Part shown: positions 15,164 through 62,540 of the stretch, piece by piece | How positions within the stretch are numbered: the first letter of the stretch is position 1 | Layout: each line of letters starts with the position of its first letter | Assembly (NCBI GenBank): GCA_965204875.1 | Contig: OZ242020.1 | Location: 104,992-168,991 of the forward strand | Source of the DNA: Candidatus Aldehydirespirator sp. | GTDB lineage: Bacteria > Actinomycetota > Acidimicrobiia > Acidimicrobiales > Aldehydirespiratoraceae | Direction of reading: 5' to 3' | DNA length: 64,000 nucleotides | Notes under the pieces: model-generated | Database searches by the model: none | The model's input: only the letters and a program-made list of their open reading frames with translations | What the model was told of the DNA's origin: nothing | Made by a program: the position numbers and the translations under genes

Positions 15164-15192
15164 ATCGTAACAAAACCGCAACACGACCGCAA
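15164..15192 (-). promoter_or_regulatory. Candidate promoter of the M23 peptidase gene (TTGCGG-N17-TACGAT on the minus strand)
   Basis: The minus strand reads TTGCGG, then 17 nt, then TACGAT, about 30 nt upstream of the ATG at 15131. This is a sequence pattern only. Confidence 0.3.
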
Positions 15193-16414: not shown

Positions 16415-16498
16415 GCGCCGCCACCGCTAGTCGCCCCCCGACACGCCTGCGCAGATCAGACACGCGCGCCTGCCCCAACCCTCGTAGCGCCGCCACCG

Positions 16499-17554
16499 CT
16501 AGTCGCCCTCCAGCACGCACACCAGGTTCTGCTGCAGGCAGGGCCCCGAGGTGGCGTGCGCGACGGCGCGGTCGCCCTCCCCGCGGGAGATCCGCGACGC
16601 GGCCTCACCGATGCGGATCAGCCCGGAGGCCATCATCGTGTGCGCGGCGAGCGCCCCGCCGGAGGGGTTGACCGCGGTCGTCTCCTCGTCGATGCCCAGC
16701 GCCCGGGTGAGCAGATGCTCCGAGGTGGTGTAGGGCGCGTGCAGTTCGGCGATATCCAGCTTGTCGGCGTTGACGCCGGCGTGCTGCGCGGCCAGCCGTG
16801 CCGACATCGACGAGGTGAGATCGCGGGCGCCGAGAGTGTGGGCATCGCTGCGGTGGTCGAAACCGCGTATCCATGCCGGTCTCTCACAGAGTTCTGCGGC
16901 CCGGTCGCCGGCGGCCAGCACGATGGCGCAGCCGCCGTCGGCGGAGGCCGGCAGGTCCGAGGGGCGCAGCGGATCGACGGCAAACTCCTCGGCGAGGATC
17001 TCATCCACGGTCTTGGGCTCGGCCCGCACCGCCTGGGGGTTGGAGGCGGCATGGGCGCGGCTGCGCGAGGCGATCTCGGCCAGACGCCGCTGACTGACGT
17101 GCCCGCCCTCGAGCTGCAGGCGCGCCGCGAGGGCCTCCACGGCGTGGCTGTCCGGCCAGAGCGGGCACACGTAGTAGGGATCCATCTGGGTGGCGAGAAC
17201 GTCGCGCAGCGAGCCGGGCGACGTCTTGCCGTAGCCGTACACCAGGGCCGTGTCGATGCCGCCGCACTGGATCTTGACCCATGCCTCATACAGCGCCCAG
17301 GCGCCGTCCTGCTCGACATGGCTCTCGCTGATGGGGGGCACCGGACCCGTGCCGTCGATGGTCATGACGAAGGAGAACGCCTGCCCGGCCAGGAAGTCCG
17401 ACGAGCCCGAGCAGGTGAAACCGATGTCAGCCTGGGTGAGGCCGACGTCGGTCTTGGCCCGCTCCATGAGCGGCACCATGAACTCGACCTCGGACTCGCC
17501 GGGGATCGAGGCCTCCTGGCGCTGCGCGAACGAGACGACCGCCACGTCGATCAT
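16499..17554 (-). CDS. Thiolase-like protein, second subunit
   Basis: Thiolase-fold similarity (NPSGGALAAHTMMASGL). It is shorter than its partner and lacks an obvious N-terminal active-site Cys context. Confidence 0.7.
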   Translation of the reverse strand: MIDVAVVSFAQRQEASIPGESEVEFMVPLMERAKTDVGLTQADIGFTCSGSSDFLAGQAFSFVMTIDGTGPVPPISESHVEQDGAWALYEAWVKIQCGGIDTALVYGYGKTSPGSLRDVLATQMDPYYVCPLWPDSHAVEALAARLQLEGGHVSQRRLAEIASRSRAHAASNPQAVRAEPKTVDEILAEEFAVDPLRPSDLPASADGGCAIVLAAGDRAAELCERPAWIRGFDHRSDAHTLGARDLTSSMSARLAAQHAGVNADKLDIAELHAPYTTSEHLLTRALGIDEETTAVNPSGGALAAHTMMASGLIRIGEAASRISRGEGDRAVAHATSGPCLQQNLVCVLEGD

Positions 17555-17699
17555 CCCGGCCCGGACCTCCTCTCGGGCTCAAGTGTGCCGCTCATATCGA
17601 TCACGTCGGCCCGGCCCTCCAGTTCAAGTGCGCATCTCATATCGATCACGTCGGCCCGGCCCTCCCCTCGGACTCAAGCGTGCAGCTCACGTCGATCAC
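17547..17699 (-). repeat. Three tandem units of 45-50 bp at the DUF35/thiolase junction
   Basis: The core tcgatca(c/t) recurs at 17548, 17597, 17642 and 17692. Each unit starts with GTGATCGA and ends with GGCCGGGCCGxx on the coding strand. Confidence 0.9.
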
Positions 17700-18271
17700 G
17701 GCGCCGCGGCCCGGCCGATGCGCTCGTAGTCGTCGATCCGCTCGTCCGGCTCGCCCGTGGGCTCCCAGCCGCTTATGTTGGCCGCCGACGTCTCAAGCTC
17801 GTCGTCGGGCCTCCACACGGCCCTGACGCGCATGCCGATGCGCACCTGCTCGGGCGCGATGTTGACCACCAGGCCCATGAAGCCCACGGAGGCGCCGTCG
17901 AGCACGATCCAGGCGCTGCAGTAGGGCGGCTTGAGGTCGGGCCGGCGCTCGATGGGGACGCGGGTCACGTTGAACGACTCGACATAGCCGACGTCGGGCA
18001 GCTCCACCACCTCGTGCGTCGCCGTGCCAGCGAGCGGGCTCACGCCGCGGGGCGGGACGAACACCTGGCCGGTCACTGCGCAACGCTCGCCGAGGATCCG
18101 CTTTTGGGCCATAGCCCGCAGGTAGCGCGACAGCGCCCGGCCCGGTGTGTAGGTATAGGTGAGCCGCAGCGGGGTGCAGACGCTGGACACGAGATCCTCG
18201 GCGGCGAGGGACTCCGGCAGCGTGACCTTCGAGGACAGCGCGGCGGGAGGCGCCAGCGGATCCGGCGCCAT
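17696..18271 (-). CDS. DUF35 OB-fold / Zn-ribbon protein
   Basis: Its size and its position next to thiolase genes fit. The C-terminal OB-fold-like segment (MRVRAVWRPDD) is typical of DUF35 partners of SCP-x thiolases. Confidence 0.65.
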   Translation of the reverse strand: MAPDPLAPPAALSSKVTLPESLAAEDLVSSVCTPLRLTYTYTPGRALSRYLRAMAQKRILGERCAVTGQVFVPPRGVSPLAGTATHEVVELPDVGYVESFNVTRVPIERRPDLKPPYCSAWIVLDGASVGFMGLVVNIAPEQVRIGMRVRAVWRPDDELETSAANISGWEPTGEPDERIDDYERIGRAAAP

Positions 18272-18720
18272 CAGCAGCCGTCCTCGGGAACGGGCTCGAA
18301 GCCGGCGATGTCGGCTATGTGACCCTCACGCTCGTTGCGCCACACCGCCCGCACCCGCATGCCGGTGAACATCTCAGCACGGTCGGCGAGCACGGCGTGA
18401 AGCATCGGGGTGTCGGCGCCATCGAGTCGTATCAGTGCCCAGGCGAACGGGCGCTCGAACGGCTGCTGGGGCCGGGGATCGCCGTTCCAGGCCCAGGTGA
18501 GCACCTCCCCGCCCTGGCCGACCTCCACCATCTCGGTGAGCGGCTCGGCGTTGATCGGGTCGTACTCCAGCGGCGGGCACAGCACCGAGCCGTCGGCTCT
18601 GCGTATGCCGCAGATCACGCCAGCCCGCAGGCCGGCCAGGAACGCGCCGATCACAGGCCCCGTCGAGCGGGTGAACGGGTACTCCAGCACCAGCGGCGCC
18701 TTCAGCGCTTCGGTGGCCAT
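18271..18720 (-). CDS. DUF35 OB-fold protein (second copy)
   Basis: A paralogous pattern (GMRVRAVWRNE). It has a TGATG one-nucleotide overlap with the downstream DUF35 gene. Confidence 0.65.
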   Translation of the reverse strand: MATEALKAPLVLEYPFTRSTGPVIGAFLAGLRAGVICGIRRADGSVLCPPLEYDPINAEPLTEMVEVGQGGEVLTWAWNGDPRPQQPFERPFAWALIRLDGADTPMLHAVLADRAEMFTGMRVRAVWRNEREGHIADIAGFEPVPEDGC

Positions 18721-18814
18721 GCGCCCCCAATGCTAGAGCAACAACCACTCGCCAAGCGCGCTCGGGTCGGGGTGACAGGTTGCCTGCCAGGGTGACGGGT
18801 TGCCGGCACGCGCC

Positions 18815-18844
18815 GGGAGGCCCGGCCGTGCTGCCGGGCCTCCC
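18815..18844 (-). terminator. Perfect 12-bp stem hairpin downstream of SLH paralog 1
   Basis: GGGAGGCCCGGC, a 6-nt loop, then GCCGGGCCTCCC, about 30 nt after the stop. The same module follows all three SLH genes. Confidence 0.6.
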
Positions 18845-18873
18845 GGTCGGTATGCCGTCTTGTGCTGGTGGTG

Positions 18874-21513
18874 TTAGCCGGAGGGTTCGCTGAAGTTGAT
18901 GATGCCGACTGTGGCGGGTGTCTGGTCCCGGTCATCATCGGCGCCGGGGGCGTTGTCCCGCAAGCGGATCAGGAACAGGACACTGCTCTTGTCGCCCGTC
19001 TCAGTCTCGTCGGTGTCGTTCATCCAGGTTGAGAAGGTGAGACTGCCGTCCGCGCCGGTGTGGCGGGTGTGGCGGTACTGGTCCCAGTTGGGAGAAGACT
19101 GGACGGCTGAGGGCCAAACTTGGAAATCGTTTGACCCCCCCTCCCTCTTAACCCTGTTCGCGTGTTTCTTGCCGGGTTCGGGGAAGTAGATGCGTTGGAG
19201 CTCAAACGTGGCGCGGCTGGTGCCGTCGGCGCCGGCTGTGGTGTCAGAGTTGCCTGCTCTGAGTTGCACCGTGATGGCCACTTCGTCACCGTAATCGGCC
19301 TCAACGGGGGCGTTCTTGTTCTTTTTTGTGTCATCCCCCTTCTTGAACGACTTCTGCAGATCCGCGCCCTCCGACTTCACGGTGATGCTGTCAGCAGCCG
19401 TTCCAGAGGGAACGGTCACGGTCGGCGCGGACCCAGAAGTGATGCGGTCGCCCTCTGACACATGCACGTAGAACACATGCAACCGCTTGTTGTCCAGCAC
19501 CTTCCTGGTGTCCAGGTTGATGATCGCCGTAGAGGCCGGACCGTTGAACTCCTCGAGCACGCGGATCACGATCGTCTTCTTATCACCGGCAGTGCTCGGG
19601 TTCGGGTCCGCCGGCGCAGTGACAGGGAACGAGACCATGCCCGTACCGTCGGTCTTCAGCGTATATTCAGCATCGATATCATAATCACTAACGGTCTCGC
19701 ATTCAGCATCACCACATTGAGGATCGAGTCGGGTATAGCCGATGTACTCGGTGACCTCATGCATCTTATTCCGACGGGGACTATAACGCATCGCGGTAGC
19801 ATGTCCATCCACATCAAATTGCCAGGAATGCAGATTGACAGGGCTGGCACCGTCGACACCGAACGCGGCGCGCTTCAGCTTGTCACCGTCGTTCTCGTCG
19901 GTGTGCAACAACTGCACCGTGAACTGCGACCAATCACCGAACTTCATCTCAAAATAATGGGCACTCTCGCTGTCCGTAGCCTTCGTGTCCGCAACCTTGT
20001 CATCATCAGCCGTAATACGCAACGACTCCGCCGCCACCTGACTCAACGGCAAAGTCGTGGTCGTGGTAGTCGTAGTGGTCGTAGTCGTGGTAGTCGTAGT
20101 CGTCGTCGTGGTAGTCGTAGTCGTCGTGGTAGCCGGGGTGGTAGTCGTAGTCGTAGTAGTCGTGGTAGCCGGGGTGGTAGTCGTAGTAGTGGTAGCCGGG
20201 GTGGTAGTCGTGGCAGTCGTAGTAGTTGTCGCGACCGGGGCCGAACCACCACCGCCACCGCCTGCAGGGGCGGCGGGAACAACCGCGGCCGCGGCCGGCA
20301 CCGTGACAGCATCAGGATCACCGGCGATGCGCAACTCGAAACCATTCACCTCGCCGTTGTAACGGGTGCCGCGGTCGCCGGTCCAGACCCACACCGTCAC
20401 ACCCCGACCAATGGTCGACGCGCTCAACTCGTCCAGTTTGACATCGCCGTCGGCGCCGGTCACCGGGTCACGCGCATCGATCGCGCACGCCGTGGAGGTG
20501 CGGTTAACGCTGCGCACGAGAGCGTTGCACCCGCCCCGCAGATCAAACGCCCGATAGCGGCGCTGCGAACTCACATAGAACCCATCCACCGGCGCCCCCG
20601 ACACCGGCCTGAACGTCGCGTCGCGCACCGACACCACCACCACACCACCGTCGGCCTGCGCCGTCACACCCGCCGGACGCACCCCCGTGTGCGCCAGCGT
20701 GCGCTTGATGAACGACGCCATATTTTTGCGCGGCACCGGACCCTCAGGATCAAACCTCCTCGCATCCCCGGCGCTGCCCGTCGTGATACCAAGCTCATAG
20801 GCGTAACTCGCCGCAACACGCGCATCCCCCGCAGGCACATCTGCGAAATGATCCAGCGTCCCACCCGAACCCAGGATCAGCTCACCCGCCATCGCGCCGT
20901 CCTGATGGAACAGGCCGGGGCTGGCATGGCGCAGGAACCCGATCAGAGCCACCGCCATCTCGGCCCGCGTGATGCTCGCATCGGGCCTGAACGCCATCCC
21001 CGAGCCGGCCAAAATGTCGTTGCGAGCCAGCGCCAGGATCGCGTTGCGGCGCTCCTCGTCGAGATCGGCGACATCGTTGAAGTCGGCGGCGCCCGAGCCG
21101 CCTGTCAGATCCACCCCGGCGACCCCAGCAGCCCTGTGCAAGAACAACGCCATCTGCGAACGCGACACCTCAGACCCGGCATCGAACCGCTCGGCCGTCC
21201 TGCCCCTGGTGATCCCGTAATACGCGATGCAGTTGATCGCATCCTCAGCAACCAACCCCTCGACATCCACAAACCCAGCATCCTCCGACGCGTCACCAAA
21301 ACACGCAGAAAACACCGGCAACGCATCAGCCTCCGCGCGGTCGTCCCCCACAGGCGCAGCCCCGACCGGCGCAGCCACCACAACCCCACCAACCAGACCA
21401 GCCACCAACAACACACACCACAACAAACCACCACCACGACACCGGCGGCGGCGGCCGGCTACAACATCAGCAGCCCCCCCCCCCCGGGGCGAAGTACGAA
21501 CCATCAGAGACAT
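18874..21513 (-). CDS. SLH-domain surface (S-layer-like) protein with poly-Thr linker, paralog 1
   Basis: The conserved start MSLMV lies behind GGAGAGG. It is followed by an Arg-rich n-region and a hydrophobic signal, then three SLH-like repeats (FVDVEGLVAEDAINCIAYYGITRG..F.., FNDVADLDEERRNAILALARNDILAG..FRPDASITRAEMAV, and others). A poly-Thr/Pro/Ala linker of about 60 aa, a variable middle and a conserved C-terminus complete the protein. Confidence 0.8.
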   Translation of the reverse strand: MSLMVRTSPRGGGAADVVAGRRRRCRGGGLLWCVLLVAGLVGGVVVAAPVGAAPVGDDRAEADALPVFSACFGDASEDAGFVDVEGLVAEDAINCIAYYGITRGRTAERFDAGSEVSRSQMALFLHRAAGVAGVDLTGGSGAADFNDVADLDEERRNAILALARNDILAGSGMAFRPDASITRAEMAVALIGFLRHASPGLFHQDGAMAGELILGSGGTLDHFADVPAGDARVAASYAYELGITTGSAGDARRFDPEGPVPRKNMASFIKRTLAHTGVRPAGVTAQADGGVVVVSVRDATFRPVSGAPVDGFYVSSQRRYRAFDLRGGCNALVRSVNRTSTACAIDARDPVTGADGDVKLDELSASTIGRGVTVWVWTGDRGTRYNGEVNGFELRIAGDPDAVTVPAAAAVVPAAPAGGGGGGSAPVATTTTTATTTTPATTTTTTTPATTTTTTTTTTPATTTTTTTTTTTTTTTTTTTTTTTTTTLPLSQVAAESLRITADDDKVADTKATDSESAHYFEMKFGDWSQFTVQLLHTDENDGDKLKRAAFGVDGASPVNLHSWQFDVDGHATAMRYSPRRNKMHEVTEYIGYTRLDPQCGDAECETVSDYDIDAEYTLKTDGTGMVSFPVTAPADPNPSTAGDKKTIVIRVLEEFNGPASTAIINLDTRKVLDNKRLHVFYVHVSEGDRITSGSAPTVTVPSGTAADSITVKSEGADLQKSFKKGDDTKKNKNAPVEADYGDEVAITVQLRAGNSDTTAGADGTSRATFELQRIYFPEPGKKHANRVKREGGSNDFQVWPSAVQSSPNWDQYRHTRHTGADGSLTFSTWMNDTDETETGDKSSVLFLIRLRDNAPGADDDRDQTPATVGIINFSEPSG

Positions 21514-21700
21514 CAGCCTCTCCTCTCGAACACCGGCGGAACCCCGCCGACCCGAATCGACCGGCACGACCCTAACACCACCCGGCCGGCCACAAGCCAA
21601 CCCCGGCAGCACCAGCGCCGTGCCACCCACCAACATACCCCCCCCCCCCCCCCGCAACGCAACGCAACCACAACTCCTCAAGACCTTGAAGGGCCGGCAA
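21514..21700 (-). promoter_or_regulatory. Conserved leader/promoter module of SLH paralog 1, containing a poly-G tract
   Basis: About 170 nt are conserved upstream of all three SLH genes. The module includes a run of about 16 C on the plus strand (21638..21653) abutting aacata (TATGTT on the coding strand), and a GGCGG-GGTT-CCGCC hairpin just before the RBS. Confidence 0.5.
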
Positions 21701-21780
21701 GCGGAGCGGTGACCTCATCCAAGCGCCTAGCCGGAAGGGAGGGGAAGCAAGTCGGGCGAGCCTAGGCTGCCGGCACGCGC

Positions 21781-21810
21781 GGGAGGCCCGGCTGTGTTGC
21801 CGGGCCTCCC
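21781..21810 (-). terminator. Hairpin downstream of SLH paralog 2
   Basis: It has the same GGGAGGCCCGGC / GCCGGGCCTCCC stem as the hairpin at 18815. Confidence 0.6.
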
Positions 21811-21837
21811 GGTCGGTATGCCGTCTCGTGCTGGTGG

Positions 21838-24381
21838 TTAGCCGGAGGGTTCGCTGAGCCTCACGATGCCGCTCGTGACCGGAGTGTTGTTGAGGCTGTT
21901 GGCGGCGTTGGGAGCGTTGGTGCTTGAGCGGATCAGGAACACGACACTGCCTGTGTCACCGGCGGCGGTGTTGGGGTCGTCCATCCAAACCGAGAAGGTG
22001 AGACTGCCGTCAGCGCCAGTGTAACGGGTTCGCCGCCACTGATGCCAATCAGTGGACTGCTGGATAGACTCGGGTCTAACCTCCAAATTGCTTCCTCCAC
22101 TCCTTTTGATCCGATTCACGTGACCGGCCGACGGAAAGTAGCCGCGGTGAATATTGAACGCAGCGCGGCTCGTGCCATCCGCTCCAACGGTGGTGTCTGC
22201 ACCGTCAGCGTCCTTGAGTTGAACCGTGACAGTCACCTCATCACCATAATCGGCCTCCACGAACACCTTGCTGCTGTTACCGGACGTGAACGACTTGTCC
22301 GTCTTCGCACCCTTGGACGTCACAGTGATGCTCGCGGCCGCCTCGCCCGCGGGAACTGTCGTGGTCACCGCAGAGCCAGAAGTCGTACGAGCCCCCTCCG
22401 TCACAAGCACAACAACCACATGCAACCGCTTGTTCGGCAGACCCGTGAACGCGGGAGAAGCCGGACCGTTGACCTCCTCGACAATATGGAGCACCAGCGT
22501 AGCCCTGTCACCCGCAGCGCTTGGGTTCGGATCCGCCGGCGCTGTAACAGCGAACGAAGCCATCCCCGTGCCATCGGTCTTCAGAGTATGCTGAGCAACG
22601 TTATTCGGAGTTTCAGCGCAGGGGTCGCCGCCCCGAAAACCATCCACATAAGCATGGTCATTAGCGACAACTTTAGAAACAGCCTCAGAAATGCTGGTAC
22701 TACACGGAGAAAGGCCAACTCCACGACCCGTCCCGTTGACCTGCCGAACATCGACCAGCACCGGGTTCGTGCCGTCCACACCGAACGCGGCGCGCTTCAC
22801 CCTGTCACCATCGTTCTCATCGGTGTACAACAACTGCACCGTGAACTGCGACCAATCACCGAACTTCATCGCATAATAGGAAACCTTATTTTGATCAATG
22901 AGCCTGGAACCCGCAACAGTCTCATCATCAGGCGTGATGCTCAACGACTCCGCCGCCACCTGACCCAACGGCATAGTCGTAGTAGTCGTCGTCGTCGTCG
23001 TGGTGGTAGTGGTCGTAGTCGTCGTCGTCGTAGTCGTCGTCGTCGTAGTCGTCGTAGCAGTGGGCGTAGTCGTAGTCGTGGTGGTGGTGGTTGCCGGGGC
23101 GGAACCACCGCCGCCGCCTGCAGGAGCGGCGGGAACAACCGCGGTCGCGGCCGGCACCGTGACAGCCCCAGCCTCCCCAGCGATGCGCAACTCGAAACCG
23201 TCCACACTGCTGTCGTTGTAAGAATCGCCGCGGTCGCCGGACCACACCCACACCGTCACACCACGACCAATCGTCGCAGCGGTCAACTCGTCCAGCCTCA
23301 CATCACCGCCGGCACCGGTCACAGGATCACGCGCGTCGATCGCGCACACCGTCGAAGTGCGGTTCACGCTTCTGACGATCGCGTTGCACCCGCCCCGCAG
23401 ATCAAACGCCCGATAGCGGCGCTGCGAACTCACATAGAACCCATCAACCAACGCACCGGCCACCGGCGCGAACACCGCGTCACGCACCGACACAACCACC
23501 GTGTTGCCGTCAGACTGCGCCGTCACCCCCGCCGGGCGCACCTTCGTGTGCGCCAGCGTGCGCGTGATGAACGACGCCATATTCTTGCGCAGAACGGGAT
23601 CACCAGGCGAGAACAGGCTCGCGCCCGCCGCGCTGCCCCTGGTGATACCAAGCTCATACGCGTAGGAGACCGCCGTGTCCACACCCTCAGGCAGACCGCG
23701 ACGCGCGTCAGCGAAATGATCCAGCGTCGCACCCGAACCCAGGATCAGCTCACCGGCCATAGCGCCGCTCCGATGGAACAGTCCGGGGCTGGCATGGCGC
23801 AGGAACCCGACCAGTGCCACCGCCATCTCGGCCCGCGTGATGCTCGCATCGGGCCTGAACGCCATCCCCGACCCGGCCAAGATGTCATTGCGGGCCAACG
23901 CCATGATCGCGTTGCGGCGCTCCTCGTCCAAATCCGCGATGTCAGCGAAGTCGGCGGCACCCGAGCCGCCTGTCAAATCCAACCCCGCCATCCCAGCAGC
24001 CCTGTGCAAGAACAGCGCCATCTGCGAACGCGTCACCTCAGACCCGGCATCGAACCGCTCAACCGTCCTGCCCCTGGTGATCCCATAGTACGCCAGGCAG
24101 TTGATCGCAGCCTCAGCAACCAACCCCTCAGTGTCCACGAACCCCGCGTCACGCGTGGCATCACCCACACACGCCGAAAACACCGGCAACGCATCGGCCT
24201 CCGCGCCGCTGCTGCCCACAGGCGCAGCCCCAACCGGCGCAGCCACCACAACAGAACCCACCAAACCAACCACCAACAACGCAGACCACCATAAGCGAGG
24301 CTTACCCCCGCCACGGCGGCGGCCAGCTACAACATCAACCAGCCCCCCCCCCGCGGGTGAAGTACGAACCATCAGAGACAT
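21838..24381 (-). CDS. SLH-domain surface protein with poly-Thr linker, paralog 2
   Basis: The architecture and N-terminal half match paralog 1 (MSLMVRTSPAGGG...). The central region of about 200 aa has diverged. The C-terminus is conserved (...YTGADGSLTFS.WMDD...VVFLIRSSTNAP...SEPSG). Confidence 0.8.
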   Translation of the reverse strand: MSLMVRTSPAGGGLVDVVAGRRRGGGKPRLWWSALLVVGLVGSVVVAAPVGAAPVGSSGAEADALPVFSACVGDATRDAGFVDTEGLVAEAAINCLAYYGITRGRTVERFDAGSEVTRSQMALFLHRAAGMAGLDLTGGSGAADFADIADLDEERRNAIMALARNDILAGSGMAFRPDASITRAEMAVALVGFLRHASPGLFHRSGAMAGELILGSGATLDHFADARRGLPEGVDTAVSYAYELGITRGSAAGASLFSPGDPVLRKNMASFITRTLAHTKVRPAGVTAQSDGNTVVVSVRDAVFAPVAGALVDGFYVSSQRRYRAFDLRGGCNAIVRSVNRTSTVCAIDARDPVTGAGGDVRLDELTAATIGRGVTVWVWSGDRGDSYNDSSVDGFELRIAGEAGAVTVPAATAVVPAAPAGGGGGSAPATTTTTTTTTPTATTTTTTTTTTTTTTTTTTTTTTTTTTTMPLGQVAAESLSITPDDETVAGSRLIDQNKVSYYAMKFGDWSQFTVQLLYTDENDGDRVKRAAFGVDGTNPVLVDVRQVNGTGRGVGLSPCSTSISEAVSKVVANDHAYVDGFRGGDPCAETPNNVAQHTLKTDGTGMASFAVTAPADPNPSAAGDRATLVLHIVEEVNGPASPAFTGLPNKRLHVVVVLVTEGARTTSGSAVTTTVPAGEAAASITVTSKGAKTDKSFTSGNSSKVFVEADYGDEVTVTVQLKDADGADTTVGADGTSRAAFNIHRGYFPSAGHVNRIKRSGGSNLEVRPESIQQSTDWHQWRRTRYTGADGSLTFSVWMDDPNTAAGDTGSVVFLIRSSTNAPNAANSLNNTPVTSGIVRLSEPSG

Positions 24382-24560
24382 CTCAGCCTCCCCTTCTCTC
24401 GAACACCGGCAGAACCCCGCCGACCCGAATCGACCGGCACAACCCTAACACCACCCGGCCGGCCACAAGCCAACCCGGCAGCACCAGCGCTACACCAACC
24501 ACCAACATACCCCCCCCCGGGCAACGCAACCCACAACTCCACTGGGTTGGCGAAGCTCGC
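24382..24560 (-). promoter_or_regulatory. Conserved leader/promoter module of SLH paralog 2
   Basis: It is homologous to 21514..21700. Here the poly-C run is only about 9 nt (24510..24518). Confidence 0.5.
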
Positions 24561-24574
24561 CGCTGGTGCCGTGG

Positions 24575-26002
24575 TCAGGCGCCGAGCAGCAGGAGCAGGC
24601 CGATGACGGTGTAGAGGATCATCACCGCCAGCATCGGGTACTGCGAGCGTGTGGCCAGCCGCCGCGGCCAGCGCTCCACGGCCCGGTCGTGGGCGACGGC
24701 CACGCCCAGAACATGGCCTGTCGCGATCGCGGCGGTCTGCGTCCAAGCGATCGTGTCGGTGGAGACCAGCAGGTAGTCCACGCCGTAGGCGGCGGTGCCG
24801 AAGAGATTCCAGCCCCGACCGAAGGGATCCGAGGCCAGGGCGATGATCTGCTGTCCCTCCAGCAGCAGGTAGCTGAAATAGTGCGCGACCGTGTAGGCCG
24901 CCGCAATGGGAACGAGCGAACCGGCGAAGGCGCCGGCCAGTTCCCGCTCGCTGCCGCCGGTGATGGCGGCCATCACCGCGATCGCCGCCCGGTACAGCAC
25001 CAGGACCACCAACACCACGAAGGTCAGGCCCACCGTGTTGAAAGCGGTGAGCCCCCAACCCGTGCGAGTCTCGACCGCCGTCAGCCACAGCGAGCTGCGC
25101 GTGAGGCCGTCGAATGTCGTGGAGCCCAGCACGACGAGGATCAGCGCCGTCGAGCCCCGCTTGACCGGCAGCACGGCCAGGCCGGCCAGCGGCAGCCGCA
25201 TCCTCCAGGCGCCGCTCGGGTGGCGGTACAGCGGGGCGATGGCGGAGAGCTTGGTGAACAGCACGCCGAAGCCCTCGGCGTCGCGCACCCAGCCGCGCCC
25301 GAAGACCGCGGCGCCCACCATCAGCACAGCCGCATAGGCCGCCACGTAGGCGCCGAGAAACCTGGGCTCGGAAGGGTCGTGGTAGGCGAGTTCGATCCAG
25401 ACGAACACGGACAGCGCGGCGACGGCCCACCGCTGGTCGCCGGCGCCCCGGTCGGCCTCGGACACCGGGCGCCGTCTGAGGCGCGCCCAGAGCCGGGCCG
25501 ACGTGTCGGCGACCGTGGCGAAGGGGTCGAGCCCTCGCCAGACATCGCCTGCCGGCACCGACGCGACCTGCAGGCCGACCCAGAAGATGATGAAGATCGC
25601 CACCGGCGCGATGTTGACCGAAGGATTGATGTTGCCCCGGAGCCCGGCATACAGCAGCACGCCGAGGGCCAGCAGTCCCGCCGCGCGTGCGACCGGCACG
25701 AGCGCCCGGCCCGCCGTTTGCAGCGGCCCCGGAAGGTCGCGCCCGGCGGCCGCGGCCCGGAGCCTGGGACGCTCCCAGAACATGCCGAGCGCCACGAACG
25801 ACGCCACCACCACGAACGAGGCGGCCCAGGCCAGCTGCCAGGCAGGCACGGGCAGATCGAGCCGGCCGCCCACACCGTGGGCGGCAGCCCGGCCCGCGGA
25901 CGCCGGCACCATCACCGCGGCCAACGCCGGGACCGCTGCCACACGGGTCCACAGTCGCAGCCGTGGGCTACGGCGGCGAGGCTTCGACGGAGGCTGCGTC
26001 AT
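24575..26002 (-). CDS. Polytopic integral membrane protein of unknown function
   Basis: At least 10 hydrophobic segments and an N-terminal signal-like segment ending in AAAHG. I recognise no catalytic motif. Confidence 0.6.
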   Translation of the reverse strand: MTQPPSKPRRRSPRLRLWTRVAAVPALAAVMVPASAGRAAAHGVGGRLDLPVPAWQLAWAASFVVVASFVALGMFWERPRLRAAAAGRDLPGPLQTAGRALVPVARAAGLLALGVLLYAGLRGNINPSVNIAPVAIFIIFWVGLQVASVPAGDVWRGLDPFATVADTSARLWARLRRRPVSEADRGAGDQRWAVAALSVFVWIELAYHDPSEPRFLGAYVAAYAAVLMVGAAVFGRGWVRDAEGFGVLFTKLSAIAPLYRHPSGAWRMRLPLAGLAVLPVKRGSTALILVVLGSTTFDGLTRSSLWLTAVETRTGWGLTAFNTVGLTFVVLVVLVLYRAAIAVMAAITGGSERELAGAFAGSLVPIAAAYTVAHYFSYLLLEGQQIIALASDPFGRGWNLFGTAAYGVDYLLVSTDTIAWTQTAAIATGHVLGVAVAHDRAVERWPRRLATRSQYPMLAVMILYTVIGLLLLLGA

Positions 26003-26094
26003 CGCAGGGGGATGCTCGTGGAGCCCCGAACGGCAGGGACTTGCGGGGCGGCTCCGAGCCGAGGCGCGCGCTCACTGCGGACGCAGGCTAACGG

Positions 26095-26168
26095 TGGGCG
26101 ATACTGGACTTGAACCAGTGGCCTCTGCCGTGTGAAGGCAGCGCTCTAGCCGTCTGAGCTAATCGCCC
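26095..26168 (-). tRNA. tRNA-Val (anticodon CAC)
   Basis: The reverse complement GGGCGATTAGCTCAG...CTGCC-TTCACAC-GGCAG...GGTTCAAGTCC...ATCGCCCA folds as a cloverleaf. CCA is not encoded. Confidence 0.85.
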
Positions 26169-26197
26169 GCGACCGGTGAGACTACCACCGGCCCGAG

Positions 26198-27220
26198 TCA
26201 CATCGCTGCGACTCGAAGGGCCCGCTCCATCACATGGCGGCTGCCGAGCAGTCGGCGCAGCTCGTTCTCCAGGCCGGCTATCGGGTACAGGTTCTGCGGC
26301 GCGCGGGCGTCCTTGTGAGGCTGGCTGGCGTAGCGCGGCAGCAGTGCCGACACAGCGTCGGCGCGGCACACCGCGTCCGCGAGCGCACTCGGCGACGCCA
26401 TCTCGCAGCGCACGATGCCCGACCATGGATGCGCCGCGACAGCCGGCAGGCGCAGGTACCAAGACCAGCGAGCGAAGCCCGAGCCGCCGATGAAGAACAG
26501 CGGGGTCCGCTGGCCGGCCCGCAGCGTCGAGATCACGCGCTGCTCGCGGTCCGGCAGGTACTGGACGTGCTGGGTCTTCACGTACCCGACGCCGGCCGGT
26601 GCGCCGCGGCCCCGGATCGGCCCGTCGAAGACCACCAGTTCCGCTCCCTCCGGCGGGATGATCTGCGCAGCGGTTGGATCGAGCACCGCATCGCCTTCAT
26701 CCGTTCCCTCCGGCGGGACGATCCGCGTCTCCAGCGCGGTCATCTGGTCATGGATCGCCCGGTAGAGGTCGTCGGGCCCGTCGGCCGCGCAGGGAACCAG
26801 CTCGTAGGTGCCGTGGCGGGTGGCGATGGGGACGGTGGCATGGGACGCCCTGGCATAGAGCGCCCGGAACACCCTCGACCCCACCACCCGAGCCGCGTCC
26901 GGGTCACAGCGGACCGCACCGGCGGCGACCGACGCGCAGACGCCGGGGCGGACCCCGTCCCCGTCGGTGATCCAGATGCGGGCGTCTATGCGCCGCACGC
27001 CGTCCACGAACACGACGGACTCCACAGGCTCAGCGTGAGGCGCGGGGTCGACCGCCGACCACCGGCCCTCGGCGCGCTCGGAGTACAGGACGACATCGCC
27101 GGTCGCCTCCTCAAGGTGCTCCGAGTCGGCGGCCAAGCCGTACTCGGGCGCCCAGCTCTCAACCGTGAACCTCAACCGCGCCTCCGGATCACGCGTGCCA
27201 CCCTCTCGCAGCGCAGGCAC
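26198..27220 (-). CDS. nurA: NurA-like nuclease (putative)
   Basis: The protein is 340 aa and sits last in the herA-sbcD-sbcC operon, as nurA does in archaea. It has an N-terminal VFVDGVRRID segment that resembles the catalytic Asp motif of NurA. The assignment rests mainly on context. Confidence 0.5.
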   Translation of the reverse strand: MPALREGGTRDPEARLRFTVESWAPEYGLAADSEHLEEATGDVVLYSERAEGRWSAVDPAPHAEPVESVVFVDGVRRIDARIWITDGDGVRPGVCASVAAGAVRCDPDAARVVGSRVFRALYARASHATVPIATRHGTYELVPCAADGPDDLYRAIHDQMTALETRIVPPEGTDEGDAVLDPTAAQIIPPEGAELVVFDGPIRGRGAPAGVGYVKTQHVQYLPDREQRVISTLRAGQRTPLFFIGGSGFARWSWYLRLPAVAAHPWSGIVRCEMASPSALADAVCRADAVSALLPRYASQPHKDARAPQNLYPIAGLENELRRLLGSRHVMERALRVAAM

Positions 27221-27354
27221 CCCGGCCGTTCAACGGCGGCCGGCCCTCGTGCCGCCGCTTGCGCCACCCTCCCGCAGCGCAGGCGCCCCAGTCAACCGCT
27301 GTGAACCGCACCTCCCGGGCACGGCTCGGCCAAGACACAGCCCTCTTCCCCCCA

Positions 27355-30201: not shown

Positions 30202-30349
30202 CGCGGCGCCTCCGCGCCCCCGGCACGCCTGCGAGCGAGTGCCGCAGGAACGCTCCGAACCGGGTCAGGCCTCATCGCGGCGCCTCCGCGCCCCCGGCAC
30301 GCCTGCGAGCGAGTGCCGCAGGAACGCTCCGAACCGGGTCGGGCCTCAT
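30196..30349 (-). repeat. Two tandem 74-bp units between sbcD and sbcC
   Basis: cat (ATG) recurs at 30199, 30273 and 30347. The two units are nearly identical, differing only at about 30267/30341 (a/g). Confidence 0.9.
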
Positions 30350-31527: not shown

Positions 31528-31582
31528 CGCCGCACCCGCCGCAGCCGGGCAACCACGCCGGCGCGCCGCGCCTGTTGCAGCC

Positions 31583-45700: not shown

Positions 45701-45907
45701 TCTGGCACTCGAGCCTCATTTTGAGAGGGGGGTTTGCCCGAGTGCGTTCGGTGCATCCTGCGCTGGAGGGAGCGCTCCGCAGTCCGAACACCGGTCAAGC
45801 TAACAGCCTCCGGAGCCGGAGCAAGCATCATCGCGACAGTTTGTATCGATACTTGCTATCGCTAGCTGCGATTGTGTCGGACCGCTGCGGCGATACCGTT
45901 GCCTGCG

Positions 45908-53808: not shown

Positions 53809-54120
53809 TCAGTCCTCGGCAGCGCCTGCGTCGTTGCGAGCGAGGTCGTGGTGGCGGATCACCTCGTCGATCACGAACCGCAGGAACTTCTCGCTGAAGG
53901 CGGGGTCGAGGTTGGCCGCTGCGGCCAGTTCCCGCATCCTGGCGACCTGCTGCGACTCGCGCTCGGGATCAGCGGGCGGCAGCCCGGCGCTTGCCTTGTA
54001 CGCGCCGATCTGCTTGGTGACCTTGAAGCGCTCGGCAAGCAGCAGTACCAGAGCAGCGTCAATGTTGTCGATGCTCGACCGGTAACCGGCCAACAATTCG
54101 TCACCCGGTCCCGAGTCCAC
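53809..54120 (-). CDS. Chorismate mutase (AroQ class)
   Basis: RSSIDNIDAALVLLLAERFKVTKQIGAYK...PEREQ-like pattern of small AroQ mutases. The start codon is GTG. Confidence 0.8.
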   Translation of the reverse strand: MDSGPGDELLAGYRSSIDNIDAALVLLLAERFKVTKQIGAYKASAGLPPADPERESQQVARMRELAAAANLDPAFSEKFLRFVIDEVIRHHDLARNDAGAAED

Positions 54121-59952: not shown

Positions 59953-62355
59953 TTAGCCGGTGGGTTCGCTGAGTCTCACGATGCCGCTTGTGACCGGGGT
60001 GGTGCCGAGGTCGTTGGTGGCGTCGGGGGCGTTGGTGCTCGAGCGGATCAGGAACACAACGCTGCCCGAGTGGCCCGAGGTGCCGGTGTCGGGGTCGTCC
60101 ATCCAGGTTGAGAAGGTGAGGCTGCCGTCAGCGCCGGTGTAACGGGTCCGCCGGTACTGGTCCCAACCGCTGGACGCCTCGGCAGACCGCGGCATAATCA
60201 CAATATCGCGCGCTCCCGCCCTTTCAATCGAGTTCGCGTGACCGCCTGTCGGGAAGTAGAGACGTTGGATATTGAACGCAGCGCGGCTCGTGCCATCCAC
60301 ACCGACGGTGGTGTCACCGTCAGCGTCCTGGAGTTGCACCGTGATCGACACCTCATCACCATAATCGGCCGCCACGAACGTCGAGCTTGTGGTCCCGGAC
60401 GTGAACGACTTGTCAGTCTTGGCACCGTTGGACATCACGGTAATCTTGGTAGCCGCGTCGCCGGCGGGCACGGTCGTGGTCACCGCGGACCCAGAAGTCG
60501 TGCGCGCACCCTCCGACACATGCACAATGACCACATGCATCCGCTTGTTCGGAACAGCAGTGATCGCAGACGATGCCGGACCGTTGATCTCCTCCACAAG
60601 ATGAACTACCAGCGTGCGCCTGTCACCCGCAGTGCCCGGGGTCGGATCCGCCGGCGCCATAACAGCGAACGAAGCCATACCCGTGCTATCGGTCTTCAGA
60701 GTATGCTGAGCAACGGTAGCATCGTTTCGAGTGGAATTGAGATAGTCGTTAGCAACAACCTTCGGCGTAGCACTACTGAACTGAGAAGGGTTCTTTAGGT
60801 GAGTATCGATGTCGACCTGCCGAACATCAATCAACACAGGGTTCGTGCCGTCCACACCGAACGCGGCGCGCTTCACCTTGTCACCATCATTCTCGTCGGT
60901 GTACAACAACTGCACCGTGAACTGCGACCAGTCACCGAACTTCATCTGGTAATAGTCACCGCCACCACTAAAGGTGGCCTTGGTAGCCGCAACCTTCTCA
61001 TCATCAGGCGTGATACTCAACGACTCGGCCGCCACCTGACCCAACGGCATAGTAGTCGTAGTCGTCGTAGTGGTCGTAGTAGGCGTAGTCGTCGTCGTCG
61101 TCGTGGTCGTCGTGGCGGAACCGCCGCCGCCGCCTGCTGGGGCGGCGGGAACGACCGCGGTCGCGGCCGGCACCGTGACAGCGTCAGGATCACCGGCGAT
61201 GCGCAACTCGAACCCGTCCACACTGCTGTCGTTGTAAGAATCGCCCCGGTCGCCGGACCAGACCCACACCGTCACACCACGACCGATGGTCGCGGCGGCC
61301 AGCTCGTCCAGCTTCACATCACCATCGGCGCCGGTGACCGGATCACGCGCGTCGACCGCGCACGCCGTCGAGGTGCGATTCACGCTCCGCACGAGCGCGT
61401 TGCACCCGCCCCGCAGATCAAACGCCCGATAGCGGCGCTGCGTGCTCACATAGAACCCGTCAACCGGCGCACCAGCCACCGGCATGAACATTGCGTCGCG
61501 CACCGACACCACCACCGTGTTGCCATCGGCCTGCGCGGTCACGCCAGCGGGGCGCACACCCGTGTGCGCCAACCAGCGCGACACGAACGATGCCAGGTTC
61601 TTGCGCAGCACACGACCCTCAGGATCAAACTTGCTCCCATCGCTGGCGCTGCCCGTCGTCAACCCCAACTCGAACCCATAACTCGCCGCCGTGCCCACAC
61701 GTCCCGAACGCGCGTCGCTGAAATGATCCAGGCTGCCCTCGCCGAGCTTCAACGCGCCCGACGCGTCGAACAGGCCCGGGCTCGCCAACCGCAACAACCC
61801 CACAAGCGCCGCCACCGTCTCAGCACGCGTCACCGGCACACCGGACATGGCACCGTCACCCGAGAGCACACCGGCGGCGGCCAACGCCGCCACAGCACGC
61901 CGGGTCTCATTGTCCATCGCGGCGTCGCCATCCATCCCGGCGTCATCTTCGGCGTCACCGAACTCAACCCCCGCGAGCACCGCCGCCCGATACAACACCA
62001 ACGCCAACTCCGCACGCGACACCACCGCACCGGCACCGAACCGGTCCTCAGACGCGCTCACGGCGACCCCGTAATACGCCAGACAGTTCACCGCGTCCTC
62101 AGCGCCGATACCCGCAACATCCACAAACCCCGCATCCCCCAACGCGTCACCAAAACACGCAGAAAACACCGGCAACACATCAGCCTCCGCGCCGCTGCCG
62201 CCCACAGGCGCGGCCCCAGCAGGAGCCGCTGCCACAACCCCACCAACCAAACCAACCACCAACAACACACACCACAACAAACCACCACCACCACCACGGC
62301 GGCGGCCGGCTACAACATCAGCCAGCCCCCCCCCCGCGGCGAGAACCACTACCAA
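59953..62355 (-). CDS. SLH-domain surface protein with a shorter poly-Thr linker, paralog 3; the conserved start is apparently out of frame
   Basis: The architecture matches paralogs 1 and 2. The ORF track starts this ORF at a TTG (MVVVLAAGGG...). The conserved RBS and ATG-TCT-CTG-ATG lie a few nt upstream in a different frame. Confidence 0.7.
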   Translation of the reverse strand: MVVVLAAGGGLADVVAGRRRGGGGGLLWCVLLVVGLVGGVVAAAPAGAAPVGGSGAEADVLPVFSACFGDALGDAGFVDVAGIGAEDAVNCLAYYGVAVSASEDRFGAGAVVSRAELALVLYRAAVLAGVEFGDAEDDAGMDGDAAMDNETRRAVAALAAAGVLSGDGAMSGVPVTRAETVAALVGLLRLASPGLFDASGALKLGEGSLDHFSDARSGRVGTAASYGFELGLTTGSASDGSKFDPEGRVLRKNLASFVSRWLAHTGVRPAGVTAQADGNTVVVSVRDAMFMPVAGAPVDGFYVSTQRRYRAFDLRGGCNALVRSVNRTSTACAVDARDPVTGADGDVKLDELAAATIGRGVTVWVWSGDRGDSYNDSSVDGFELRIAGDPDAVTVPAATAVVPAAPAGGGGGSATTTTTTTTTTPTTTTTTTTTTMPLGQVAAESLSITPDDEKVAATKATFSGGGDYYQMKFGDWSQFTVQLLYTDENDGDKVKRAAFGVDGTNPVLIDVRQVDIDTHLKNPSQFSSATPKVVANDYLNSTRNDATVAQHTLKTDSTGMASFAVMAPADPTPGTAGDRRTLVVHLVEEINGPASSAITAVPNKRMHVVIVHVSEGARTTSGSAVTTTVPAGDAATKITVMSNGAKTDKSFTSGTTSSTFVAADYGDEVSITVQLQDADGDTTVGVDGTSRAAFNIQRLYFPTGGHANSIERAGARDIVIMPRSAEASSGWDQYRRTRYTGADGSLTFSTWMDDPDTGTSGHSGSVVFLIRSSTNAPDATNDLGTTPVTSGIVRLSEPTG

Positions 62356-62540
62356 CCATCAGAGACATCTGAGCCTCCCCTTTCTCTCGAACGCCGGCAG
62401 AACCCCGCCGACCCGGCTAGACGGCACAACCCTAACACCACCGGCCGGCAACACGCCAACCCCGGCAGCACCAGAGCCACACCACCCACCAACATACCCA
62501 AGCCGCCCCCCGGCACGCAACAACCACAAACCCTCAAGGC
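62356..62540 (-). promoter_or_regulatory. Conserved leader/promoter module of SLH paralog 3
   Basis: It is homologous to the other two leaders. Here the poly-C run next to aacata is interrupted (ccc aag ccg cccccc). Confidence 0.45.

What the first reader, a model, noticed from the sequence alone, without database searches (positions are those of the whole stretch)
21631..21660. Variable-length poly-G tract abutting a TATGTT -10-like box upstream of the SLH genes
On the coding strand all three leaders contain TTGCGT...(G-rich spacer)...TATGTTGGTGG. In copy 1 the spacer is mostly a run of about 16 G (plus-strand C run at 21638..21653). In copy 2 it is CCC plus about 9 G (24510..24518). In copy 3 the run is interrupted (about 62497..62513). 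By my count the distances from TTGCGT to TATGTT are roughly 19, 14 and 18 nt. If these hexamers are the promoter, tract length would set promoter strength differently for each paralog. This mirrors transcriptional phase variation in Bordetella fim and Haemophilus hif promoters. It would be a second switch layered on the coding-region tract.
Basis: inference. Interest (0 to 1): 0.6.

Follow-up and report, generated by a model that had tools for sequence, protein, structure and literature searches.

The report
Slippery G-run beside surface-gene promoter
Two of three related cell-surface protein genes in an uncultured Acidimicrobiales bacterium carry a long, slippage-prone run of G bases directly against a likely promoter box, so they probably use a known kind of random expression dial, but this has not been shown experimentally.

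Summary
On the minus strand G16 (21638-21653), G9 (24510-24518) and an interrupted GGGGGGCGGCTTGGG (62497-62511) each abut an invariant TATGTTGGTGG upstream of three paralogous SLH-domain genes. The TTGCGT-to-TATGTT spacers are 19, 14 and 18 nt. Every homopolymer of 9 nt or more in the 64 kb window belongs to these genes.

An independent metagenome contig matches the window over 13.9 kb except for +1 G in both copy-1 tracts. This fits hypermutability, but at 3x coverage sequencing error is not excluded.

For it:
- TATGTT is the only shared TANNNT upstream.
- A 30-bp, sense-strand-only RNA hairpin (z -4.4 to -5.9) starts about 7 nt after TATGTT, as a 5'-terminal stem-loop would.

Against it:
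- TTGCGT is a weak -35, and this organism's clear promoters show no -35.
- The two pure tracts give off-optimum spacers.
- A better promoter, the extended -10 TGTTAGGGT, lies 57 nt downstream. It matches the tRNA promoters and is kept in relatives that lack the tract.

Most likely there are tandem promoters, with the tract tuning only the distal one. This would be a new member of a known kind (Neisseria porA, Bordetella fim, Cutibacterium acnes tracts). Interest is moderate.

The parts
21638..21653 (-). Copy 1 upstream G16 homopolymer (C16 on the plus strand). It abuts TATGTT. It is G17 in ENA contig ERZ26693861 ctg116199.
21653..21668 (-). Copy 1 pentamer repeat (TTGCG) x3.2, directly 5' of the G tract.
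21668..21677 (-). GGAGTTGTGG box. This is the 5' edge of the module shared by all three copies (24531-24540 in copy 2; GGGTTTGTGG at 62524-62533 in copy 3).
21632..21637 (-). Copy 1 TATGTT, the candidate distal -10 (TANNNT). It is invariant as TATGTTGGTGG in all three copies.
21559..21628 (-). Copy 1 30-bp sense-strand RNA hairpin (dG -46.5 kcal/mol, z -5.9). Its main stem starts 7 nt after TATGTT, and its 3' arm contains TGTTAGGGT.
21569..21577 (-). Copy 1 TGTTAGGGT, the proximal extended -10 promoter candidate. The same class of 9-mer precedes tRNA genes, and it is conserved in relatives without the tract.
21534..21549 (-). Small conserved 5'-UTR stem-loop CGGCGG-GGTT-CCGCCG.
21474..21485 (-). 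Copy 1 coding G12 tract, 28 nt after the ATG at 21513. It is in frame here and is G13 (out of frame) in the ENA contig.
18874..21513 (-). Copy 1 SLH-domain surface protein gene (879 aa from the ATG).
24510..24518 (-). Copy 2 upstream G9 tract, preceded by CCC and abutting TATGTT. It is identical in the ENA contig.
24504..24509 (-). Copy 2 TATGTT. TTGCGT lies at 24524-24529, giving a 14-nt spacer.
24432..24500 (-). Copy 2 RNA hairpin (dG -38.4 kcal/mol, z -4.4). It includes TGTTAGGGT at 24442-24450.
24343..24352 (-). Copy 2 coding G10 tract (in frame). The gene spans 21838-24381 and encodes 847 aa.
62497..62511 (-). Copy 3 interrupted run GGGGGGCGGCTTGGG abutting TATGTT. The longest pure run is 6 nt, so it is not slippage-prone.
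62491..62496 (-). Copy 3 TATGTT. TTGCGT lies at 62515-62520, giving an 18-nt spacer.
62420..62487 (-). Copy 3 RNA hairpin (dG -36.1 kcal/mol, z -4.5). It includes TGTTAGGGT at 62429-62437.
62326..62335 (-). Copy 3 coding G10 tract. From the ATG at 62368 the frame runs into TGA just after it (OFF by +1). The long ORF resumes in another frame, 59953-62355.

Best explanation
The G run is a hypermutable homopolymer sitting at positions -13 and upstream of a distal, subfamily-specific promoter. The -10 of that promoter is TATGTT.

Transcripts from this promoter would start about 7 nt after TATGTT. They would begin with a 30-bp stem-loop, followed by a UTR of about 110 nt, a Shine-Dalgarno sequence, the ATG and then the second (coding) G tract.

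Replication slippage changes the run by +/-1 G. Actinobacterial NucS-type repair does not correct such indels. Each change shifts whatever lies upstream (the TTGCG repeats and the GGAGTTGTGG box) relative to the -10, and so raises or lowers distal-promoter output.

A second, family-wide extended -10 promoter (TGTTAGGGT) lies 57 nt downstream. The upstream tract would therefore act as a volume control on one of two tandem promoters. The coding tract provides the true on/off switch.

Shown here: the tracts, their restriction to these genes, the invariant hexamers, the hairpin energetics and strand specificity, and one length difference between assemblies. Inferred: both transcription start sites, any effect of tract length on transcription, and that the length difference is biological.
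For: - Tract reality and enrichment.
- TATGTT is the only TANNNT common to the three copies upstream of the leader. In copy 2 the 57 nt between the upstream gene's stop codon and the tract contain no TA dinucleotide at all.
- Homology among the copies starts about 25-30 nt upstream of the tract, which is the expected upstream edge of a promoter.
- The segment immediately after TATGTT folds into a 30-bp hairpin in the sense RNA only. Sense energies are -46.5, -38.4 and -36.1 kcal/mol, with z -5.9, -4.4 and -4.5 and 0 of 200 shuffles as good. Antisense z values are -1.5, -0.6 and -0.25.
- In that hairpin 13 of 30 pairs are G.U, 90 of 90 cells are paired, and there are 2 compensatory and 3 one-sided changes. 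Sliding the partners by 1-3 columns gives only 28-53% paired.
- The main stem starts at column 7, the canonical +1 for that hexamer.
- A paralog that lacks the Gn-TATGTT module also lacks the hairpin (L009, z -0.47).
- The ENA contig L001/L006 equals the window over 13,949 bp with 0 substitutions. All 128 homopolymers of 4-10 nt in that stretch are identical. It differs only by +1 G in the 16-nt and 12-nt tracts.
- NucS does not repair 1-2 bp indels, and homopolymer phase variation is known in Actinobacteria (PMC11551767; PMC4746626).
Against: - No transcription start site data exist.
- TTGCGT is a 3-of-6 match to the -35 consensus, and the sigma-70 scan does not call the promoter.
- Other promoters in the window have no -35.
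- Spacers for the pure tracts are 19 or 20 nt and 14 nt. Neither is near 17.
- TATGTT lacks the TG extension and the TAG core that this organism's clear promoters share.
- The proximal TGTTAGGGT fits that consensus and is conserved in L009, L007/L008 and L002, where no tract exists. It alone could drive the genes.
- Covariation in the hairpin is not significant with three sequences (103 of 500 shuffles reach it).
- The length difference rests on one 3x contig. Both tracts differ in the same direction, as a calling bias also would.
- Copy 3 has lost tract purity, so the tract is not conserved as such.
Confidence: 0.4

Rival explanations
1. The only functional promoter is the proximal extended -10 TGTTAGGGT. 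The G tract then lies about -75 to -90 from the start. At most it changes the distance or helical phase between an upstream site (the TTGCG repeats and GGAGTTGTGG box) and that promoter, in the manner of nadA. It is not a -35/-10 spacer.
For: - TGnTAnnnT occurs only 14 times on both strands of 64 kb. It sits 9-12 nt before two tRNA genes and directly before leaderless-looking ORFs.
- The SLH copies carry an invariant GGTGGTGTTAGGGT.
- The same element is kept in the fourth paralog L009, in L007/L008a (TGGTAGGGT) and in L002 (TGCTATGGT). All of these lack the tract.
Against: This does not explain the sense-only 30-bp RNA hairpin. Its 5' arm lies upstream of TGTTAGGGT and would not be transcribed from that promoter. 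No regulator or binding site has been identified.
Confidence: 0.25
2. The upstream run is a functionless by-product. G runs expand and drift in a lineage that cannot repair slippage indels, and this run hitch-hikes next to genes whose real switch is the coding tract. It may be a decayed relic of a duplicated 5' gene end.
For: - Copy 3's run is interrupted and copy 2's is only G9, so purity and length are not conserved.
- The spacers do not centre on a functional value.
- The distal module shows weak similarity to the gene's own 5' coding region, including tract + ATGTTG.
Against: - That similarity is not significant against dinucleotide shuffles (p 0.015-0.1).
- Apart from these genes the genome avoids runs longer than 7 nt. 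A 16-nt run persisting exactly at a -10-like box therefore suggests tolerance or selection.
- Known actinobacterial examples place G/C tracts upstream of surface-protein genes with effects on expression (PMC4746626).
Confidence: 0.2
3. The tract is transcribed, lying in the 5' UTR of a transcript that starts further upstream or reads through from the upstream gene. It would act at the RNA level, as with the Moraxella uspA1 poly-G.
For: - Copy 2 lies only 57 nt after the upstream same-strand gene, with just a weak 5-bp hairpin between them at 24549-24561.
- Copies 1 and 3 share about 60 nt of further upstream similarity.
Against: - There is no shared TANNNT upstream of the tract.
- Copy 1 is preceded by a perfect 12-bp GC hairpin after copy 2's stop codon at 21781-21810.
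- The leader is C-poor, so an RNA G16 would have no pairing partner.
Confidence: 0.05

Closest known systems
Neisseria meningitidis porA (also opc, fetA): poly-G or poly-C tract in the -35/-10 spacer
   Same: A G/C homopolymer lies inside the promoter of a surface-protein gene, and gain or loss of one base changes transcript level (PMC3899988). From my own knowledge, porA also has a second tract in the coding region, which parallels the two-layer layout here.
   Different: In porA both hexamers and the start site are mapped, and the tract length brackets a 17-nt spacer. Here the -35 is doubtful, the spacers are 19 and 14 nt, a second promoter lies downstream, and nothing has been measured.
Bordetella pertussis fim2/fim3 promoter poly-C tract
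   Same: A homopolymer of about 13-16 nt in the promoter region of a surface-appendage gene family. Each paralog has its own tract, so each switches independently (PMC2562373).
   Different: From my own knowledge, the fim tract sits between an activator (BvgA) site and the -10. No activator is known here. The organism is an environmental actinobacterium, not a pathogen.
Cutibacterium (Propionibacterium) acnes variable G/C homopolymeric tracts
   Same: The host phylum is the same (Actinobacteria). The tracts are almost all G/C, lie upstream of or in the 5' end of genes including surface adhesins, and some fall in the -10/-35 spacer or overlap the -10, with transcriptome differences (PMC4746626).
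   Different: The C. acnes tracts were compared across 90 genomes and were judged to change slowly by clade. Here only two assemblies are available. The gene family (SLH-domain proteins) and the class (Acidimicrobiia) also differ.
Haemophilus influenzae hifA/hifB TA-repeat promoter
   Same: A repeat between the -35 and -10 sets the spacer length and therefore fimbrial transcription (PMC3899988).
   Different: It is a dinucleotide repeat in a bidirectional promoter.
Neisseria meningitidis nadA upstream TAAA repeats
   Same: This is the model for the rival reading. A repeat upstream of the core promoter changes the spacing between regulator sites (PMC3899988).
   Different: It is a tetranucleotide repeat with defined NadR and IHF sites. 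None are defined here.
Mycobacterial homopolymer phase variation (for example glpK) in a NucS background
   Same: An actinobacterial lineage in which slippage indels go unrepaired, so short G/C runs switch genes reversibly (PMC11551767).
   Different: Those tracts are mostly 7-9 nt and lie in coding sequence. The one here is a 16-nt intergenic tract.

Membership tests
SSR-mediated transcriptional phase variation (promoter-spacer type: porA, opc, fim, hif) | A simple-sequence repeat long enough to slip at high rate (about 8 or more G/C) | tested here: met
   Copy 1 has G16 and copy 2 has G9. Copy 3 does not meet this: its longest pure run is 6 nt.
SSR-mediated transcriptional phase variation (promoter-spacer type: porA, opc, fim, hif) | The repeat lies between, or overlaps, the -35 and -10 of the promoter that drives the gene | tested here: inconclusive
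   The tract abuts a TANNNT hexamer that is supported indirectly by a 5'-terminal hairpin. However, the -35 is a 3-of-6 match, the spacers are 19, 14 and 18 nt, and a better promoter lies 57 nt downstream. No start site has been mapped.
SSR-mediated transcriptional phase variation (promoter-spacer type: porA, opc, fim, hif) | Repeat length is polymorphic within or between populations of the same strain | tested here: inconclusive
   The tract is G16 in the window and G17 in a contig that is otherwise identical over 13.9 kb. That contig has only 3x coverage, so a homopolymer calling error cannot be excluded. No read-level data were available.
SSR-mediated transcriptional phase variation (promoter-spacer type: porA, opc, fim, hif) | Transcript or protein level changes with repeat length | not testable with these tools
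   This needs reporters, RT-qPCR or metatranscriptomes sorted by tract length.
SSR-mediated transcriptional phase variation (promoter-spacer type: porA, opc, fim, hif) | The controlled gene is a contingency-type surface or envelope gene, often one of several paralogs | tested here: met
   The window holds three paralogs with signal-peptide-like N-termini, SLH domains and Thr-rich linkers. The family has 271 hits in Acidimicrobiales-type metagenome contigs.
Actinobacterial G/C homopolymeric tracts of the C. acnes type | G/C runs placed upstream of, or in the 5' end of, surface-protein genes in a genome that otherwise lacks long runs | tested here: met
   All five runs of 9 nt or more in the 64 kb window lie at these genes, two upstream and three in the 5' coding region. 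The comparison is with PMC4746626.
Known structured RNA families (Rfam) for the leader | A match to a curated covariance model | tested here: not met
   There was no hit at gathering thresholds over the whole window apart from 4 tRNAs. There was no hit at E<=1 for 21400-21800.

The most novel reading that the evidence does not exclude
The G16 run, which is long enough to fold into an intramolecular G-quadruplex on the non-template strand, may not primarily be a promoter spacer. It could instead be a recombination initiator, like the G4 upstream of Neisseria pilE. In that role it would trigger gene conversion among the SLH paralogs, whose identity profile is mosaic. The TATGTT promoter next to it would supply the transcription that opens the duplex. 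Nothing here tests this directly. The mosaic blocks (c1-c2 up to 97-98% identical, c1-c3 up to 95%, interspersed with blocks of about 50%) and the tract-adjacent promoter are merely compatible with it.
Probability: 0.05. Interest if true: 0.8.

Novelty: new member of a known kind. Interest (0 to 1): 0.4.

Why it matters
If tract length does tune transcription, each SLH paralog would carry two independent random switches: promoter volume and coding-frame on/off. A single clone could then display many combinations of its surface coat proteins.

That would extend contingency-locus logic from host-adapted pathogens to an uncultured, free-living Acidimicrobiales lineage, where phage or grazer pressure is the likely driver. 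It would also add a clear case to the small set of actinobacterial promoter tracts.

There is a practical point as well. These tracts cause gene callers to truncate or split the genes. They are also places where long-read assemblies disagree.

Tried and rejected
1. Strain variants of the leader. A metagenome-contig scan with GGTGGTGTTAGGGTNGTGCC returned only two chance hits, one at 46% GC and one unrelated. The genome-contig scan with the N-terminal protein gave one distant Acidimicrobiales MAG without tracts and a Paenibacillus SLH hit.

2. Exact-protein look-ups. Those for the closest NCBI paralogs (P0001, P0003, P0004, P0005), for copy 1 and for both neighbours of copy 3 found nothing. The upstream regions of the closest paralogs therefore could not be read.

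3. Poly-A tracts in distant homologs. Many distant homologs are called from internal starts (MSALVASLL...). I tested whether they carry a poly-A tract in the KKRR codons. This is rejected: the DNA reads GTGAAGAAGCGGCGC, with no homopolymers.

4. A coding leader or uORF starting at the ATG inside TATGTT. This is rejected. It is in frame with the gene only in copy 1, and the 1-nt indels between copies destroy any common peptide after about 12 codons.

5. The distal module as a degenerate duplicate of the gene's own 5' end. This is inconclusive. The local alignments differ between copies and reach only p 0.015-0.1 against dinucleotide shuffles.

6. A known RNA family in the leader. None was found.

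7. Leader conservation as evidence of constraint. This is not compelling. Leader identity (0.82-0.97) is only slightly above that of the adjacent coding DNA.

Full report
**What is in the sequence**

The window is 68.8% GC. On the minus strand it carries three paralogous genes for SLH-domain proteins:
- Copy 1 runs from the ATG at 21513 to 18874 and encodes 879 aa.
- Copy 2 runs from the ATG at 24381 to 21838 and encodes 847 aa.
- Copy 3 starts at the ATG at 62368 but hits a TGA just after its 5' G10 tract. The long ORF continues in another frame to 59953.

The three genes share an upstream module of about 170 nt. Read 5' to 3' on the coding strand, the module contains:
- a GGAGTTGTGG box;
- TTGCG units, 3.2 copies in copy 1 (TRF), two in copy 2 and one in copy 3;
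- a G-rich stretch;
- an invariant TATGTTGGTGG;
- about 57 nt of spacer;
- an invariant GGTGGTGTTAGGGT;
- a small stem-loop, CGGCGG-GGTT-CYGCCG;
- a Shine-Dalgarno sequence and the ATG;
- a coding G tract 28-33 nt later (G12, G10 and G10).

**Check of the observation**

- G16 at 21638-21653;
- CCC plus G9 at 24510-24518;
- the interrupted GGGGGGCGGCTTGGG at 62497-62511;
- TTGCGT-to-TATGTT distances of 19, 14 and 18 nt.

The tracts are not chance events. G9 words occur 17 times against 1.9 +/- 2.2 in dinucleotide shuffles. Homopolymer lengths in the window fall smoothly (89 runs of 5 nt, 19 of 6, 2 of 7, none of 8). They then reappear only as 9, 10, 10, 12 and 16, all on the coding strand of these three genes. 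Because the three leaders are paralogs, the common layout counts as one inherited feature.

**Organism and family**

The nearest genome hit is an Acidimicrobiales MAG, OZ220491.1. The protein family is large, with 271 hits, mostly from ENA metagenome contigs and often combining SLH with a Big_1 domain. The closest relatives, in a 3.05-Mb genome, are mostly called from an internal start just after the signal peptide (MPVFSAC...). One of them, P0006, is 100% identical to a full-length ENA version, P0121. The P0121 gene has an in-frame G9. This fits frame changes at the coding tract between assemblies.

**Length variation**

An ENA metagenome contig (ERZ26693861 ctg116199_3x_l; loci L001 and L006) matches window 17891-31840. 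Over those 13,949 bp there are no substitutions. The only differences are +1 G in the copy-1 upstream tract (G17) and +1 G in the copy-1 coding tract (G13, out of frame).

All 128 other homopolymers of 4-10 nt in that stretch are identical, including the G9 and G10 of copy 2. This is what hypermutable tracts predict. It is also what homopolymer miscalling at 3x coverage predicts, and both changes go in the same direction. I therefore treat it as suggestive only. Outside that block the contig diverges or does not align, so it comes from a mosaic relative or from a chimeric assembly.

**Where is the promoter?**

Two candidates exist.

(a) Proximal candidate: TGTTAGGGT, an extended -10.
- The pattern TGnTAnnnT occurs only 14 times on both strands of the window.
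- It lies 9-12 nt before tRNA-Val(cac) and tRNA-Val(gac), and directly before ORFs that look leaderless.
- None of these sites has a recognisable -35.
- The same element is conserved in relatives that lack the G-tract and TATGTT module. These are a fourth paralog type (L009: GATGGTGTTAGGGTTGTACCGGTCAAGTCGGGTC), L007/L008a (CGTGGTAGGGTTC...TTTCGGATC) and L002 (GCTGCTATGGT...GATTCGGACC).
- It is therefore very probably the ancestral promoter of the family.

- It fits TANNNT but has no TG extension.
- Its proposed -35, TTGCGT, matches TTGACA at 3 of 6 positions, and the sigma-70 scan does not report the pair.

An unexpected result favours (b). The roughly 70 nt that follow TATGTT fold into a 30-bp hairpin in the sense RNA.
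- Sense energies are -46.5, -38.4 and -36.1 kcal/mol. The z-scores against dinucleotide shuffles are -5.9, -4.4 and -4.5, and 0 of 200 shuffles fold as well.
- The antisense strand does not fold comparably, with z of -1.5, -0.6 and -0.25. This is because 13 of the 30 pairs are G.U.
- Across the three copies all 90 pair cells are standard pairs, with two compensatory and three one-sided changes. Sliding the partners by 1-3 columns gives 28-53% paired.
- With only three sequences the covariation itself is not significant: 103 of 500 shuffles reach it.
- The continuous stem begins at the seventh base after TATGTT, which is where a start site is expected. The transcript would therefore begin with a base-paired 5' end. 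From general knowledge, this is the classic stabilising arrangement of abundant envelope and S-layer mRNAs.
- The paralog without the distal module has no such hairpin (z -0.47).
- TATGTT is also the only TANNNT shared upstream of this hairpin. In copy 2 there is no TA dinucleotide at all between the upstream stop codon and the tract.

I conclude that a distal promoter at TATGTT is plausible, and that the three genes probably have tandem promoters.

**How the tract would work**

If TATGTT is a -10, the run occupies -13 to -28 in copy 1. Each slipped G moves the TTGCG repeats and the GGAGTTGTGG box by one base and 34 degrees of helical turn relative to the -10.

Under the classical spacer model, copy 3 (18 nt) would be near the optimum, copy 1 (19 nt, or 20 in the other assembly) weak, and copy 2 (14 nt) off. 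However, the organism's other promoters appear not to use a -35 at all, so the size of any effect is unknown. The proximal promoter would also keep a basal level of transcription. The upstream tract is therefore better described as a possible volume control. The coding tract is the binary switch: ON in copies 1 and 2 and OFF in copy 3 in the window, and copy 1 OFF in the ENA contig.

Actinobacterial NucS repair does not remove 1-2 bp indels, which has been linked to homopolymer phase variation in mycobacteria (PMC11551767). A 16-nt run should therefore be very unstable. I did not verify that this lineage has NucS.

**Rivals**

1. Only the proximal promoter works, and the tract is an upstream spacer (nadA-like) or inert.
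2. The run is a functionless, drifting by-product, perhaps a relic of a duplicated 5' gene end. Similarity to the coding tract region exists but is not significant.
3. The tract is transcribed in a longer UTR. This is unlikely, because no shared upstream -10 exists and a perfect 12-bp GC hairpin (21781-21810) separates copy 2 from copy 1.

**Comparison with known systems**

G/C tracts in promoter spacers are well known: porA, opc and fetA in Neisseria, fim in Bordetella, and TA repeats at hif in Haemophilus (PMC3899988; PMC2562373).

Within Actinobacteria, Cutibacterium acnes has 54 variable tracts, almost all G/C. Two thirds lie upstream of genes, including cases in a -10/-35 spacer or overlapping a -10 that show transcript differences (PMC4746626).

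The present case works like these on paper, but it meets only some membership criteria. It has a slippery tract and a surface-gene family. Promoter position and length polymorphism are inconclusive, and the effect on expression is untested. No paper in the library links Acidimicrobiia with S-layer homology domains, and the leader matches no Rfam family.

**Verdict**

This is most likely a new member of a known kind of switch in an unusual, environmental lineage. Two features are worth following up: the pairing of an upstream tract with a coding tract on each paralog, and a large 5' hairpin whose 3' arm contains the family's ancestral promoter.

Interest is moderate (0.4), because the key functional claims remain untested and the principle is established elsewhere.

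Noticed in passing
window 21474-21485, 24343-24352, 62326-62335 (minus strand); L006 12073-12085; L009 1065-1073: There are coding-region G tracts 28-33 nt after each ATG. Copies 1 (G12) and 2 (G10) are in frame. Copy 3 (G10) is out of frame by +1. Copy 1 is G13 (out of frame) in the ENA contig. A fourth paralog has an in-frame G9, whereas its NCBI twin P0006 is called from an internal start.
   Followed up: partly
window 21559-21628, 24432-24500, 62420-62487 (minus strand): A 30-bp RNA hairpin rich in G.U pairs forms on the sense strand only, immediately after TATGTT. Its 3' arm contains the extended -10 TGTTAGGGT. It is absent from the paralog that lacks the distal module, and it has no Rfam match.
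   Followed up: yes
window 21653-21668 (minus strand): The pentanucleotide repeat (TTGCG) x3.2 directly abuts G16 in copy 1, with two units in copy 2 and one in copy 3. It is a second potential length-variable element in the same promoter region.
   Followed up: partly
window 26179-26187, 55838-55846, 56005-56013, 45797-45805, 15164-15172, 2930-2938: Extended -10 motifs (TGnTAnnnT, often TGYTAGNNT) lie 9-12 nt before tRNA genes and directly before ORFs that look leaderless, with no recognisable -35. This appears to be the organism's main promoter type.
   Followed up: partly
window 58743-59817 and 62775-63848: Copy 3 is bracketed by two paralogous 336-aa nucleotidyltransferase genes (Pfam Polbeta/NTP_transf_2). 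They are 83% identical over 1.09 kb as direct repeats, which could mediate loss or duplication of the SLH gene.
   Followed up: partly
window 54000-55650: A low-GC island (51-56% against 69%) encodes a 507-aa fusion of an N6/N4 DNA methylase with an HNH nuclease. It sits next to tRNA-Val(gac) at 55749-55826 and is probably horizontally acquired.
   Followed up: no
window about 21360-21640, 24230-24510, 62215-62500 (minus strand): The leader and the first 150 nt or so of all three ORFs are strikingly G+T rich on the coding strand: G 46%, T 24-27%, C 20-23% and A 7%. On the plus strand GC skew is -0.44 and AT skew +0.57 at 62000-62400. Codon choice (GTT, GGT, TTG) is atypical for a 69% GC genome. 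This is unexplained.
   Followed up: no
L006 (ENA ERZ26693861 ctg116199) against window 16493-31840: The contig is identical to the window only between 17891 and 31840. Beyond 17891 it shows about 10% substitutions plus many indels, and its first 1.7 kb do not align. This indicates either a mosaic related strain or a chimeric low-coverage assembly.
   Followed up: partly
window copies 1-3, protein residues about 420-490: All three proteins contain runs of 40-60 threonines (interrupted by P and A) between the N-terminal SLH region and the variable C-terminal region. These are likely O-glycosylated linkers. The C-terminal halves are the most divergent parts.
   Followed up: no
window 21781-21810 (minus strand): A perfect 12-bp GC hairpin, GGGAGGCCCGGC-AACACA-GCCGGGCCTCCC, lies just after the copy 2 stop codon with no T-run. 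It is probably the terminator that separates copy 2 from copy 1.
   Followed up: no
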